Positions 11,881 through 53,022 of a DNA stretch of 64,000 nucleotides are shown here, one piece after another (the first letter of the stretch is position 1; each line of letters opens with the position of its first letter). The notes under the pieces are model-generated. The model searched no databases, was not told the DNA's origin, and was given only the letters and a program-made list of their open reading frames with translations. Both the position numbers and the translations under genes were made by a program. This DNA is from Octopus sinensis (Eukaryota), in assembly GCF_006345805.1 (NCBI RefSeq), contig NC_043000.1, positions 91,636,001-91,700,000 of the forward strand. Reading direction: 5' to 3'.

Positions 11881-13134
11881 ACGAGGGATGTTCGTTAAAG
11901 ATTTCCTCTGACCCACTTCCAGTGATTGCAGAAAACAGAACTTATACTGGTGTAATCTTACATGTCTCTACATGACACATTGTAAATTACAGCTTTCTAC
12001 TAGCATTCGTTTGTCTGTTAATGCTGTTGAAGGGGACTAAGGTGTTGTAAAGGAAGCAGTTGAATGCAGACCAGTGATCAGGTTCTTATACTTGAAAGGT
12101 ACTTTCACTGTGATGAAAGAAGTTTATGATGATGATGCATCATCATACGATGTAGTCAAGCACTGGCATTGCCAGTTCAAACGTGGTCAGACATCAGTGG
12201 ACACTGCTCCTGTTCCTGGACAACCACAATCTGCAATTGATGCCAACAACATCCATAAAGTGGAAAGCACCATTTTGGAAGATTGCCACATAACTATTTG
12301 GCAACTAGCTCAATAAGTGAAGATAAGGGAAGGGTCCATGGAAAAAAATCACTTATGACCATTTGCACATGTAGAAATTTTCTGCACGATAGATTCCTTG
12401 GGTGCTCACACATTTTCAGAAGCAGAAACAGGTCAATTGCTCCCAAGCTTTTTTGGCAATGTGCCAAGAAAATGAGGACTATTCCAGCAGATTTATCACA
12501 CAGGATGAAACATGGGTCCATCACCATGATCATGAGACTAAAGTCCAGTGAAAGCAATGGAAGCATGATAACTCCCTACCTCCAAAGAAGGCTCGCGTTC
12601 AATCCTCAGCAAGCAATGTGATGCTCAGTCTTTTGGGACCAGTGCGGAGTAGTGATGATGGATTTTCTTGTAAAGGGCACCACAATTAATGGGGCATATT
12701 ATGCTTCTCTGATGCAGAAATTGCTAGACGCTATCAAAAGAGAGAGGCGTGGCATGCTGACTGAAGGAGTTCGCCTCCTCCAAGGCAACACCCCAATTCA
12801 CAATGTGCATGTTGCCCAGATGAAAGCACAACCCTCCAGCTATGAAATCCTTCCACATCCCCATTACTCTCCCAACTTTACACCATCTGGCTTCCACCTC
12901 ATTCCAGTTAAGAAGTCTTTTTTTAAAAGGGGAAGCACTTTTTGGAGGCTGATGAACTTATTTCCAATGTAAAGTCTTGGCTCCAGACGCAACCTACCGA
13001 CTTCTACAGATGCAGTCTTCACAGCTGCATAAAGTGATGGGAGAAGTGTGTCACCGTTGGTAGTTGCTATGTACAGAAGGACTAATAATTACGCCAAGTT
13101 TCATTTATCCCACTCCTTAGGAACACCCTTCATA
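11881..13134 (+). mobile_element. Full-length decayed mariner (DD34D-type) transposon with a transposase pseudogene
   Basis: TIR-like ends TAcgagggatgttc / gaacacccttcaTA. Frameshifted translation includes VIRFLYLKG, ITQDETWVHH, LLQGNTPIH and LPHPHYSPNFTPSGFHL. Confidence 0.92.
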
Positions 13135-25843: not shown

Positions 25844-26671
25844 CAGAGTGTGATGAATAAATAATCGTCTAAATTACGCAAAAATAAAACTGACATCTCA
25901 TTTTAGCAGATATATTCACCAAAATTACATAAAAATATCTTGAAATACTAAAGGGTAAATTTATTCAATAAAATCGCCATTAGCTTCAACCACGGCCTCC
26001 AGACGACTTCGGAATGTCCTGCAAGTCTTCAGGACGGTCTCCTTGTTTAAGTTAGTGGATATTGCCATAATCCTTGCCTTCAATTCATCTTTGGTGTGCA
26101 AAGAGTTTTGTTGGCCTCTCAACTGTGTCTCACACATAATAATCAAGGTGATTGCAGTCTGGGGAGTTAGGTGGCCAGATGTTAGGGGTGATCTGGTCGC
26201 ACAAATTGTCTGACAGCCACAACTGTGTTCTTCGGTGTGGCATGGTGCAAAGTCCTGTTGCCAGATATAGGGTCTTCCAGCAGCCACCCCCATACCCAGG
26301 GCAGCACTACCTCCTCATGACACTTGATGTAGGCCTCTGTGTTGAATCTGAAGCCGTGTGGGAAGATGAATGGAGGTATAACTAGTGATCACTCCACACA
26401 TCATGATGTTGATCGGATGTTTGATTTTTATCAATCTCGGTACATATCCTGATTTTGCACTGTCCTCAGATTGAAACCCAAACACTCTGAAACGTTCGTA
26501 TTGGAGCTTCCGTCGCGAATGCCAAGAGTGAATTGCGTCATAGTGCTGGTTTTCTCTCAGACGTGTCCAACTGACCCTACTGTACTGTGTTATCGACAAA
26601 ATCGAAAACAAACAATGCGCATGCGCGAAATTAAGAATATAAAATGCTGGCAATGTACCCATCGCACCCTA
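25844..26671 (-). mobile_element. Internally deleted maT/DD37D-like Tc1-mariner element
   Basis: TIR-like ends cagagtgtgatg / catcgcaccct. Translation includes GRPYIWQQDFAPCH, a shifted-frame WPPNSPDCNHLDYY, and the C-terminus ..CRTFRSRLEAVVEANGDFIE. Confidence 0.85.
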
Positions 26672-27820: not shown

Positions 27821-28229
27821 TATACATACACACACCACACATATATATATATATAATATAAGGATAAAATCTATATAAGAATTTATCAAGTTGCCAGCGT
27901 GAAGAACCAGTTTAGGATGAAAAAATTAATACAAAGTATATAATTTTTCTTTTAAATATAAACACATTAATTATATTAAGGGCTATTACTACACGTAAAC
28001 GCCTCACGCTGTAATGGGACTCTAAAGTAAAACTACTTCAATAAATATTCGGGGCAACGAAAACGGGGGAATGCAACATGGAAGCTACCCTTTAGAAACA
28101 GATTTAGGCGTATACCAATAATGATTTCCTGGTCAGCATGTATAATATGCTCTCCAATCTTCACTCTTACAGCATGGGGCGTTTACTTGTAGAAATAGCT
28201 CTTAATAAAATGTAAGTATATATATATAT

Positions 28230-29000
28230 ACTCTTTTACTTGTTTCAGTCATTTGACTGCGGCCATGCTGGAGCACCGCCTTTAGTCGAGCAACTCGACC
28301 CCGGGACTTATTCTTTGTAAGCCCAGTACTTATTCTATCGGTCTCTTTTGCCGAACCGCTAAGTGACGGGGACATAAACACACCAGCATCGGTTGTCAAG
28401 CACTGTTAGGGGGACAAACACAGACACACAAACACACACGCGCACACACATATATATATACATATATACGACAGGCTTTTTTCAGTTTCCATCTACCAAA
28501 TCCACTCACAAGGCTTTGGTCGACCCGAGGCTATAGTAGAAGACACTTGCCCAAGGTGCTACGCAGTGGGACTGAACCCGGAACCATGTGGTTGGTAAGC
28601 AAGCTACTTATGTGTATACATTATTTTATTCTTTTATTTGCTTCGGTCATCTGATTGCGGCCATGCTGGAACATCGCATCGAAGGGTTTTAGTCGAATAA
28701 ATCGGTCCCAAGACTTAGTTTTGTACATATTCTGTCTTTTTTGCCGAACAGTTAAGTCATGGGGACATAAACACACCAACGCCGGTTGTAAAGTGGTGAT
28801 AGACGAACACACACACACACACACACGCACACACATACACATAAGACGGGTTCTTTCAGTGTCCGTCTACCAAATCCACTCACAAGACTTTAATCTTCCC
28901 GAGGCTATCGTAGAAGACACGTACCCAAGATGCCATGAAGCGGGACTGAACCGGGAACGATGTGGTTCGCAAGCAAGCTACTTACCACACCGCCTCACAT
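28230..29000 (-). mobile_element. Two tandem family A SINEs (28230-28610, 28622-29000)
   Basis: Both match the reverse complement of family A, including the internal microsatellite. Confidence 0.9.
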
Positions 29001-29087
29001 ACGTATGTATATATGCACACACACATATACATACATACATACATACATACACACACACATACATACATACATACATACATACATACA

Positions 29088-29118
<31 letters not shown>

Positions 29119-29254
29119 TTATATGTATAAATTAAATATATATATATAAATATATTGTCAATAAAAAAGGATAAAATTAATTAATTATTAATTAATTCGA
29201 CCGAGCAGTGTTCGGTATGTAAAACGACCATTTACGGTATATTTGAAATATTAC

Positions 29255-29662
29255 TTTATAAAAATAGGGTAAAGTAAAATAATTTACTTTACCACTTTTT
29301 AGAAATAGCAGCCAAAAATTTGGCTATTTCTTCTACTGCAAGACAAGTCTCCCAGACAATGCATAGTCAGAAATAACTCACATAGGTATAAGGGAAAAAC
29401 AACGAAAGATCACATCCATATGAGATCACCCGAGGACAAGCCTGTTTCTGGATTAGTTGACTAAACGCCAACATTTCCTTCATCAGCTCAGATATTTCTT
29501 CTTCGTTGTTTTTCCCTTATACCTATGTGAGTTATTTCTGAGTATGCATTGTCTGGGAGACTTTTCTTGCAGTAGAAGAAATAGCCAAATTTTTGGCTGC
29601 TATTTCTAAAAAGCTCGGTATGTGGTAAAGTAAATTATTTTAATTTACCCTATTTTTATAAA
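29255..29662. repeat. Fold-back element with ~150-bp inverted arms (29255-29407 / 29502-29662) enclosing a hammerhead
   Basis: The arms are near-identical reverse complements (e.g. gaaataactcacataggtataagggaaaaacaacgaa / ttcgttgtttttcccttatacctatgtgagttatttc). The element is flanked by (TA)n. Confidence 0.92.
29427..29494 (-). ncRNA. Type I hammerhead ribozyme, complete core
   Basis: UAUCUGAG-CUGAUGA-A-GGA..GUUGGC(GUUUA)GUCAAC..UCC-A-GAAAC-AGGCUU-GUC-CUCGGGUG. It has an 8-bp stem I, a stem II, a short quasi-palindromic stem III and a GUC triplet. Predicted cleavage is between 29435 and 29434. Confidence 0.8.
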
Positions 29663-29822
29663 ATATATATAAATATATATATACATACATAATAATATAT
29701 ATATATATATATATGGCCTGCTCGCTTAGCCAGCGGGGTGGCGTCATTCGAAGGCTAAAACAAGCGAACGCATTGTGACCACGATGTGTAACAACATCAG
29801 ATGGTCTGGTCGGTTCACGTGA

Positions 29823-42870: not shown

Positions 42871-43769
42871 TACCTGGTCCGATCAATAAGTATCCGAACT
42901 GTTGCCATAGTAACGAAGCTGAAGCATGCAGAGTAAAGCCGCTAGACACAGATTGACCTCGAACTCTGCTGTGCATACCCACAAAGGTTTACCGTTCTAT
43001 CTCACTTCCGCTATTTACAACAGTGCTTGGAAGGAACGTGTGTAGCGTGTAATCGTTGCATTGACAATCAGAGAGTAAGTTGAGCCTAGAATCTGCATCA
43101 AATTTTGCCAGAAATTTGGCGATACCTGATAAAGGGCCTGCGCAATATTTTCAAAAGGTTTTCATCGTTCTCGATACAATCAAGGAGATATTGTGCAACT
43201 GAAACCCAAGTCTCTTTTTGGTCAGCTGAAGGCAGTTTTGGCATAAACTTAGCAAACACGCGTCTCATACCTAAATCTTCAGTGATAATGGATTGAACTG
43301 AACCGTAACTAATCTGCACATCCTTTGATAACTCACGCATTATGATCCAACGATTTCCTCTCACAGCTGCACGCACATCTGCCATGTTTTTCTCAGTTCT
43401 ACTGGTTGCGGGTCTCCCAGAACGTTCGTCAATATCGACATTTTTTCAGCTATCATGGAAACGTCTGACTCACTCATACACTTGTGTGCGGATCTTACAC
43501 TCCTCTCCATACACTTTCTGCAAATTTGCGTAGGTCTCTGAGGAAGCATCGCCATGACAACTTTCTCTGTCATGGTCAATGCGACAATCACATGCTACAC
43601 ACCTTCCTTCCAAGCACTGCTGTAAAGAGCGAATATGCTGTAGAACGTTAAAACTTAATGCGCATGCACAACGGAGTTCAAGGTCACTCTTTGCGAAGCT
43701 GCTTCACTCTGTGTGCTTTAGCTTTGTTACTATGGCAACAGTCTGGATACTTATTGATTAGACCTCGTA
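42871..43769. mobile_element. Mariner-derived element built from two inverted 5' ends
   Basis: Long inverted termini (ggtccgatcaataagtatcc / ggatacttattgattagacc). The minus-strand N-terminal transposase reads ...RELSKDVQISYGSVQSIITEDLGMRRVFAKFMPKL... Confidence 0.88.
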
Positions 43770-52583: not shown

Positions 52584-52891
52584 CTCAAAGAAATTCCAAT
52601 ATTGATTTTCACGTTTTATTTACAATCTTATAATATAATATAATTAGATAATATAATATAATGAAATGATAGAATATTAAATTTACAACTGTTGTAAATT
52701 GTAAAGCATAACTATCATAACTACTACATGAACCTGAAGATTGCCTAGTATAATTCATGAAAGTACTAGATAAATCAGAAAGGACATTTAATATTCTATC
52801 ATTTCATTATATTATATTTACTTATACTATATTATTATAAGATTGTAAATAAAACGTGAAAATCAGACAAGGTTAAAATTTGTTCGAGTAA
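52581..52891. repeat. AT-rich fold-back element in (TA)n, with CTGAAGA in the loop
   Basis: gattttcacgttttatttacaatcttataat...aatgaaatgatagaatattaaat pairs with its reverse complement at 52787-52865. Confidence 0.85.
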
Positions 52892-52920
52892 TATACTCTT
52901 CTATGCACAATCATACACAC

Positions 52921-53022
<102 letters not shown>

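What the first reader, a model, noticed from the sequence alone, without database searches (positions are those of the whole stretch)
29255..29662. Complete hammerhead ribozyme caged in the loop of a 150-bp-arm fold-back
Seen: the minus strand at 29427-29494 has every hammerhead element, namely an 8-bp stem I (UAUCUGAG/CUCGGGUG), CUGAUGA, a stem II, GAAA, a 2-bp stem III with quasi-palindromic AGGCUU, and a GUC triplet. It fills most of the ~95-nt spacer between two near-identical inverted arms, and the unit sits in (TA)n. Known: Penelope-like elements carry minimal type I hammerheads with palindromic helix III in their terminal repeats, and their insertions often include an inverted terminal piece. 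Inference: this is an ORF-less PLE-terminus fold-back whose transcript would be a long dsRNA stem with a self-cleaving loop. Such an RNA could be a substrate for ADAR or Dicer, or a non-autonomous ribozyme-bearing retroelement. Single extra A residues flank stem II, so activity is not guaranteed.
Basis: partly seen in the sequence, partly recalled or inferred. Interest (0 to 1): 0.75.

Follow-up and report, generated by a model that had tools for sequence, protein, structure and literature searches.

The report
Ribozyme parasite inserted by double priming
The fold-back is real but is one copy of a 563-base, protein-free repeat present hundreds of times in this likely octopus genome; the repeat carries a predicted self-cutting RNA, and its mirror-image arm is likely a routine scar left when a Penelope-type jumping-gene enzyme copied the RNA into both ends of a DNA cut, not a purpose-built cage.

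Summary
Observation confirmed; the element is larger (29155-29662, a ~100-nt tail was missed). It is one insertion of a 563-nt tandem, hammerhead-bearing repeat without a conserved ORF (605 exact hits of a 24-nt arm motif): a non-LTR retrozyme. The fold-back is not a conserved design. 54 of 100 insertions examined are inverted, arm lengths vary widely, and 26 of those 54 leave a hammerhead in the loop. The 8-bp stem I comes from a near-private substitution. The hammerhead looks selected: across related families all helices covary and stem III stays self-complementary (dimer type); the flanking A residues are a family trait. Cleavage is untested. Insertions end at two fixed points ~190 and ~290 nt past the cut site, and inverted ones pair short with long (32 of 37; none long-long). 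Copies run through the cut site, up to 8.5 units. This fits Penelope-type priming of both DNA strands on one circular or uncut RNA. A 5.5-kb LINE inserts at one site in the sister subfamily. No autonomous partner found. This scan noted the same system on other DNA; my searches found no octopus retrozyme in print.

The parts
29155..29662 (-). Whole insertion of the 563-nt retrozyme unit: a forward piece and an inverted piece joined 5' to 5', both 3' ends facing out into (TA)n
   Evidence: L001; outer ends blur by a few bases into TA
29155..29502 (-). Forward 5'-truncated piece, unit positions ~496 through the cut site to ~290 (long end); 94.7% to its nearest copies
29427..29494 (-). Predicted type I hammerhead, PLE-like, dimer type: stem I, CUGAUGA, extra A (29479), stem II with 3x3 internal loop, extra A (29449), GAAA, self-complementary stem III, GUC
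29434..29435 (-). Predicted cleavage site after GUC (unit position 0/1)
   Evidence: sequence; position by the known hammerhead rule
29493..29493 (-). Near-private A (family has C) that lengthens stem I to 8 bp
   Evidence: 3 of 50 rows have A
29255..29409 (-). Left arm = native sequence downstream of the hammerhead (unit ~29-190); lacks 9 nt between 29294 and 29295 that form one strand of a conserved helix of the 3' module
29502..29662 (+). Inverted 5'-truncated piece, unit ~29-190, ending at the short end
29502..29503 (.). 5'-to-5' junction with 1-nt overlap
   Evidence: family junctions range from 21-nt gap to 12-nt overlap, 53 junctions
29030..29154 (.). (TACA)n and (TA)n left flank
29663..29715 (.). 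(TA)n right flank

Best explanation
This is one insertion of a 563-nt tandem repeat that has no conserved reading frame, carries a predicted hammerhead ribozyme in each unit, and is likely copied from RNA into (TA)n tracts by a Penelope-like retrotransposon enzyme. Shown: the unit, its arrays, its two fixed 3' ends, the short-long pairing of ends in inverted insertions, read-through of the cut site, covariation of the hammerhead across related families. Inferred: arrays are transcribed; two hammerheads pair through stem III and cut the multimer into monomers; monomers are ligated to circles; a PLE protein cuts both strands of a (TA)n target and primes reverse transcription at two internal sites of a structured 3' module, ~190 and ~290 nt past the cut site, one per DNA strand; the two cDNAs stop early and are joined 5' to 5'. 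Here one cDNA ran ~350 nt (just past the hammerhead) and the other ~160 nt (stopping just short of it), which leaves the ribozyme between two arms. This copy has one hammerhead and a 9-nt deletion in the module, so it is probably a dead end.
For: Period 563 nt; arrays of 8.5 units and an inverted 4+3-unit array. 54 of 100 insertions inverted; of 37 with both ends at the fixed sites 32 are short-long, 5 short-short, 0 long-long (18.2 short-long expected, p 2e-6); position-ordered subset 15 of 18, p 0.003. 93 of 138 pieces run through the cut site, 15 through two or more, 1 starts within a few bases of it; 100 of 138 3' flanks are TA-rich. Substitutions fixed in all units of one array and absent elsewhere in 3 of 4 arrays, including both orientations of L238. 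Core intact in 71 of 80 loci chosen by flanks. Cross-family alignment: 98.6% of cells paired, two-sided changes in all four helices, 0 of 500 shuffles as high. Circular monomer folds at z -8.2 and -5.5, 25 shuffles each. Relatives with other hammerheads keep the 3' module and the same two ends. PLE ORFs of 762-883 aa with RT and GIY-YIG are present. Literature: inverted 5'-truncated copy, tail at one end, microsatellite bias (PMC8557442); two internal RT start sites that define the tail (PMC11167929).
Against: No autonomous PLE sharing the 3' module was found in 30 GIY-YIG loci, 14 longer PLE regions and 30 tail-motif loci (part of the output was cut). 17 of 54 inverted insertions have one end away from the fixed sites. 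Within the family, hammerhead covariation does not exceed shuffles (40/500 and 120/500), and the absence of core columns among 14 variable columns of 183 is not significant. The cross-family rows were picked by a pattern that fixes parts of stems I and II, and they are related. As a monomer the active fold (-15.8 kcal/mol) loses to an inactive one (-17.9); in the native unit stem I is not predicted to form. Units within an array differ by 0-16 substitutions, between arrays by 3 or more (median 10), so a circle is not proven over a linear multimer. The tail is ~100 nt against 30-40 nt in described PLEs. 8 of 9 predicted Xenopus retrozyme dimers did not cleave in vitro (10.64898/2026.07.22.740005). 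Many loci came from searches that favour hammerhead-bearing copies.
Confidence: 0.85

Rival explanations
1. The arm-loop-arm unit is a selected RNA device: a long dsRNA stem for ADAR or Dicer with a self-cleaving loop.
For: A minus-strand transcript would fold into a ~155-bp stem with stems I and II formed in the loop in the lowest-energy structure; the junction removes the short upstream hairpin that is predicted to sequester stem I in the native unit, and the private A lengthens stem I.
Against: 46 of 100 insertions have no inverted arm; inverted arms range from ~30 to ~1750 nt; 26 of 54 inverted insertions have the same loop layout by truncation alone; no second copy with this junction among the loci examined; arms have diverged (a 9-nt gap and several substitutions).
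Confidence: 0.05
2. It is an orphan terminal repeat (pLTR) of an autonomous Penelope-like element, truncated on insertion.
For: Same hammerhead type and same insertion footprint as PLEs; a PLE origin of retrozymes is proposed in print (10.64898/2026.07.22.740005).
Against: In every long copy seen the tail leads back to the hammerhead after ~560 nt; only short ORFs of 61-122 aa that differ in frame between subfamilies (one 164-aa frame starts in flanking DNA); the PLE ORFs examined end in unrelated 3' sequences.
Confidence: 0.07
3. Same element and enzyme, but the template is an uncut linear multimer from a source array; circles and ribozyme cleavage are not needed for spreading.
For: In the anole PLE, hammerhead mutants insert normally and uncut RNA is the main substrate (PMC11167929); within-array and between-array distances overlap.
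Against: Array-private substitutions shared by all units in both orientations; strongly self-paired circular fold; hammerhead covariation over several families implies selection for cleavage.
Confidence: 0.3
4. A MITE or fold-back DNA transposon, a DNA snap-back, or an assembly artefact.
For: Near-perfect terminal inverted arms in TA; long-read assemblies can create false palindromes; the junction was not confirmed by independent contigs.
Against: Arms end at two different fixed sites that single copies also use; variable 5' truncation; tandem arrays; arms differ from each other by a 9-nt gap and substitutions, unlike a read-through artefact.
Confidence: 0.03

Closest known systems
Metazoan non-LTR retrozymes (coral, mussel, axolotl: PMC7229834, read abstract and parts 2-4 of 6; vertebrate survey: bioRxiv 10.64898/2026.07.22.740005, read parts 1-3 of 5)
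   Same: Short tandem units with one type I hammerhead each, no ORF, low GC, highly self-paired predicted circle, PLEs in the same genome, dimer-type stem III as in axolotl.
   Different: Unit 563 nt (170-400 nt in PMC7229834; 51-972 in the preprint). Hammerhead is the PLE-like variant with an extra base on both sides of a long stem II. Fixed internal 3' ends, paired short-long inversions and a site-specific LINE parasite are not described in the parts read. Expression and cleavage not shown here.
Endonuclease-bearing Penelope-like elements, Neptune type (PMC8557442, 12 passages seen; PMC4209133, parts 1-2 of 4; PMC11167929, parts 1-2 of 4)
   Same: 5' truncation, partial tandems, inverted 5'-truncated copy, tail at one end, (TA)n target, minimal hammerhead with unpaired base 5' of stem II and palindromic stem III, two internal reverse-transcription start sites.
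   Different: No RT or GIY-YIG ORF; tail ~100 nt rather than 30-40; unit returns on itself.
Target-specific Tx1-clade LINEs (Tx1 in Tx1D, Keno in U2, Tx1-Mar in Mariner-N4; PMC4494074, passages seen)
   Same: The 5.5-kb LINE found in the sister subfamily has AP-endonuclease, RT and zinc-binding domains and inserts at one site of a multicopy repeat with a 16-bp duplication.
   Different: Its target is a retrozyme unit. Its clade was not tested by a tree; it is not in this window's copy.

Membership tests
Non-LTR retrozyme | [quoted passage not shown] | tested here: met
   Family level: dimer L014, arrays L091, L093, L206, L238. The window copy itself holds one hammerhead.
Non-LTR retrozyme | No protein-coding capacity | tested here: met
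   Only 61-122-aa frames, not conserved between subfamilies
Non-LTR retrozyme | Highly self-paired monomer | tested here: met
   Circular fold z -8.2 and -5.5 against 25 shuffles each
Non-LTR retrozyme | Expressed as linear and circular unit-length RNA | not testable with these tools
   Only assembled contigs of runs guessed to be RNA were offered
Non-LTR retrozyme | Target-site duplication longer than 4 bp when present | tested here: inconclusive
   Flanks are (TA)n, so a duplication cannot be read
Type I hammerhead, PLE variant | Core CUGANGA, GAAA, UH with stems I and II | tested here: met
   (71 of 80 intact)
Type I hammerhead, PLE variant | Palindromic stem III/loop 3 for dimer cleavage | tested here: met
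   10/10 here; 8/8 to 10/10, 8/9 or 8/10 in 12 motifs from related loci
Type I hammerhead, PLE variant | Stem II starts directly with a G10.1-C11.1 pair, extra base on the 5' side only | tested here: not met
   An extra base lies on both sides (A/A or U/U) and the first pair is G-C or A-U; no Rfam hammerhead model hits
Type I hammerhead, PLE variant | Mg-dependent self-cleavage | not testable with these tools
   Bench test needed
Autonomous Penelope-like element | ORF with RT and GIY-YIG endonuclease | tested here: not met
   None in or next to the unit; such ORFs exist elsewhere in the genome
PLE-type insertion footprint | 5' truncation, inverted 5'-truncated copy, tail at one end, microsatellite target | tested here: met
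MITE or fold-back DNA transposon | Fixed terminal inverted repeats in all copies | tested here: not met
   46 of 100 insertions lack an inverted arm; arm lengths vary
snRNA-type promoter unit (lead from earlier scan notes) | U1/U2-like proximal element ~55 nt upstream of the LINE site | tested here: not met
   34 of 35 U1/U2 genes have ATCAGT at -57 to -61; best matrix score in either unit 0.1 or less (training sites 13-26, shuffled maximum mean 3.4), sense strand only
Tx1-clade LINE (the parasite) | RT phylogeny with Tx1 elements | not tested
   Only domains and insertion site were checked

The most novel reading that the evidence does not exclude
A dimeric Penelope-type enzyme grips one circular ribozyme RNA at a conserved structured module and primes both strands of a cut (TA)n target at two fixed sites 100 nt apart, so internal initiation is what lets an RNA without a 3' end be integrated; the resulting repeat clade is stable enough that a LINE has evolved to insert at one exact site in it, a three-level parasite chain.
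Probability: 0.45. Interest if true: 0.75.

Novelty: new member of a known kind. Interest (0 to 1): 0.5.

Why it matters
The locus is ordinary for its family. The family matters because how animal retrozymes move is stated to be open (PMC7229834 names PLEs as candidates; the 2026 preprint says the mechanism remains to be worked out). Its insertions give a countable footprint (two fixed start sites, short-long pairing, read-through of the cut site) and a ~200-nt module that can be handed to a purified PLE protein, as was done for the anole element. It also supplies a natural hammerhead variant with an unpaired base on both sides of stem II, and a site-specific LINE that targets a ribozyme repeat.

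Tried and rejected
Rfam: no hammerhead hit at E<=1 in 25-35 kb. First reading, that all copies are fold-backs, was wrong: the reverse hits were the single 3' arm. Search for an autonomous partner: not found; two module copies 3.4 kb apart were a local duplication; a 6-kb insert between arms was a LINE. A Pfam accession recalled for a PLE domain is not in the library. Expression: no RNA holder on record was listed; contigs of four runs guessed to be RNA cover 27-29 of 30 bins of the unit at low depth, which shows neither level, strand, ends nor editing. Window junction: no listed contig bridged it in four runs, most pieces not shown; this proves nothing. snRNA-type promoter: not seen in this family; the 10 non-retrozyme LINE flanks did not match the starts of 35 U1/U2 genes. 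Within-family covariation: not above shuffles. Arm-versus-arm similarity: own arm as close as or closer than the nearest other copy in 23 of 30, but median distances are both 1, so weak. Alignment A2 held one wrongly oriented row and was not used for counts. The two 10-kb stretches beside the window hold no copy. No host gene was recognised in the window's ORF list. The Atlas could not read the LINE protein. One paper on dimeric PLE hammerheads was not held and is not used.

Full report
Observation. The minus strand carries UAUCUGAG (29494-29487), CUGAUGA (29486-29480), a stem II, GAAA (29448-29445), AGGCUU and GUC with the predicted cut at 29435/29434. The arms match over 112 nt at 98% with a 95-nt spacer and extend to about 29255 and 29662 across one 9-nt gap. 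Taken alone the motif is modest: no Rfam hammerhead hit among 33 matches at E<=1, fold z -1.5, and a loose core pattern hits 11 times against 4.8 expected. The genome is 2.7 Gb; that it is an octopus is my inference from the repeat landscape (recalled) and from earlier scan notes, not a test.

The unit. A genome search gave 94 matches from 40 scored of 1854 candidates. Most copies have one arm only. The arm is simply the sequence downstream of the hammerhead; it continues into a ~100-nt tail (window 29155-29254) and, in longer copies, ~270 nt more that lead back to the hammerhead. The period is 563 nt. Exact counts: 38 for a 20-nt core motif of the window's subfamily, 605 for a 24-nt arm motif that also takes in a sister subfamily ~89% alike and a few relatives. 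Arrays reach 4789 nt (8.5 units), and one inverted array has 2388 plus 1752 nt. Reading frames are 61-122 aa and differ between subfamilies. The monomer folded as a circle is a branched rod, z -8.2 and -5.5 against 25 shuffles each.

The fold-back is the normal scar. I mapped 113 distinct loci: those returned, which favour hammerhead-bearing copies, and a position-ordered sample from the first 100 of the 605 listed motif hits. Dropped before the final count: 1 locus cut by its edge, 9 copies of a derived composite, 3 loci of more distant families. Of the remaining 100, 54 are inverted and 46 single; in the position-ordered subset 24 of 45 are inverted (without the last two exclusions 57 of 112 and 27 of 57). 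In 26 of the 54, a whole hammerhead lies in one arm only, as in the window. Inverted arms run from about 30 to 1750 nt. Junctions range from a 21-nt gap to a 12-nt overlap (53 junctions); the window's overlaps by 1 nt.

Two fixed ends. 3' ends cluster at unit ~190 (short; class 165-212) and ~290 (long; class 255-300), counted from the cut site, and 100 of 138 such ends abut TA-rich DNA. Single insertions end short 34, long 10, elsewhere 2 times. Among inverted insertions 17 of 54 have an end elsewhere; of the other 37, 32 pair short with long, 5 are short-short, none long-long, against 18.2 short-long expected from independent draws (p 2e-6; subset 15 of 18, p 0.003). The window copy is long plus short. 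PLE insertions are described with an inverted 5'-truncated copy, a tail at one end and microsatellite bias (PMC8557442, passages), and the anole PLE protein cuts and extends both strands and starts at two internal RNA sites that define the tail (PMC11167929). I infer the same chemistry, one site per strand.

Template. 93 of 138 pieces run 5' through the cut site, 15 through two or more, and 1 starts within a few bases of it, so the template is not a cleaved linear monomer. Three of four arrays carry substitutions fixed in all their units and absent from the other units; L238 has two, in both orientations. That fits one circular template, but units within arrays differ by 0-16 and between arrays by 3 or more, median 10, so an uncut multimer is not excluded.

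The hammerhead. The core is intact in 71 of 80 loci chosen by their flanks. Within the family covariation is not above shuffles, and the window's 8-bp stem I depends on an A found in 3 of 50 rows. Related families of 560-648 nt give the better test: stem I CUGAG/CUCGG becomes UUGAG/CUCAA, the base of stem II GGA/UCC becomes AGA/UCU, the flanking A/A becomes U/U, the triplet is GUC, GUU or GUA, and stem III changes sequence and length while staying self-complementary. On 15 rows 98.6% of cells pair and 24 cells change on both sides, 0 of 500 shuffles as high; these rows are related and were picked by a pattern that fixes parts of stems I and II, while outer stem II and stem III were free. A 581-583-nt family with a different hammerhead shares the 3' module (66% over 168 nt) and ends at 191 and 292 from its own cut site. 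As a monomer the active fold is 2.1 kcal/mol above an inactive one, whereas two stem III strands pair fully at -12.3: dimer cleavage is predicted, as for PLE and axolotl hammerheads (PMC4209133, PMC7229834). The window copy has one hammerhead and lacks 9 nt of a module helix, so it is probably inert as a source, though its junction removes a hairpin predicted to block stem I in the native unit.

Partner and parasite. GIY-YIG search gave 147 matches of 150 scored from 5029 candidates, among them ORFs of 762-883 aa with a CxxxxCxxC linker, Neptune-like by PMC8557442. None examined shares the module, so the partner is unnamed. A 5.5-kb LINE (AP endonuclease, RT, zinc-binding) sits at unit 425-440 with a 16-bp duplication: of its 30 best 3' ends, 16 are followed by unit position 425, 4 by the 16-bp piece and another LINE copy, 10 by other DNA; 13 of 15 newly fetched regions have the unit ending at 440 right before the LINE's first base, two of them probably one duplicated locus. 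Earlier scan notes propose an snRNA-type promoter there; I found none in this family.

Known and new. It meets the sequence criteria of non-LTR retrozymes; expression and cleavage are untested. Searches for retrozyme plus octopus (2 listed of 3, neither on this by title and abstract start), hammerhead/cephalopod/octopus/penelope, and Tx1 plus retrozyme (0 papers) found no description; an Octopus repeat annotation has no occurrence of 'ribozyme' in its main text (PMC13282606). Most subscription papers, Repbase entries and the supplements of these papers were not seen and may list the family. This scan has noted octopus retrozymes with two-site priming and a LINE parasite several times on other DNA; a look-up by this sequence found nothing. 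My family, end-pairing and LINE results preceded those word look-ups.

Verdict. Real feature, known kind, ordinary copy. Interest 0.5, carried by the family's insertion footprint and the site-specific LINE, not by the caged-ribozyme idea.

Noticed in passing
L204:1831-7329 (G000:C1); L274-L288: Young 5.5-kb LINE inserted at unit position 425-440 of the sister subfamily with a 16-bp duplication, sometimes in tandem; 10 of 30 copies have other targets, some with their own 16-18-bp repeats before a further LINE copy.
   Followed up: partly
L018:2540-3030; L130-L159: Very young 581-583-nt family (98-99% alike, 2433 first-look candidates) with a different hammerhead (very long stem II, CGUACG stem III), the same 3' module, the same two ends and inversions.
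   Followed up: partly
L289-L323: Further cousin families, periods 560, 564 and 648 nt; 383 exact hits of a tail motif.
   Followed up: partly
L197, L208, L209, L218, L225, L226, L228, L229, L237: Nine near-identical copies of a composite: ~220 nt of unrelated sequence with a sharp 5' edge, then rearranged retrozyme 3' pieces without hammerhead. It has spread by some other route.
   Followed up: no
window 52720-52950 (+): Decayed hammerhead-like core and 3' end resembling, by eye, the 3' end of PLE copies L167 and L170, followed by (TG)n(TA)n.
   Followed up: partly
L162:6027-6120: Another hammerhead, unrelated in sequence, also with an extra A on both sides of stem II; its parent element was not identified.
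   Followed up: no
L014:957-1142: In the window's subfamily the AUG inside CUGAUGA opens a 61-aa frame; the anole PLE ORF also starts at its hammerhead, but cousins have CUGACGA and lack this start.
   Followed up: no
window 12259-12972, 25961-26668, 43098-43445: Broken frames that look like Tc1/mariner transposase remnants (recalled resemblance).
   Followed up: no
window 28216-28984: Two tandem, diverged copies of an abundant SINE-like repeat just left of the insertion.
   Followed up: no
L325-L359: U1 and U2 genes of this genome share ATCAGT at -57 to -61 (34 of 35), a candidate proximal promoter element.
   Followed up: partly
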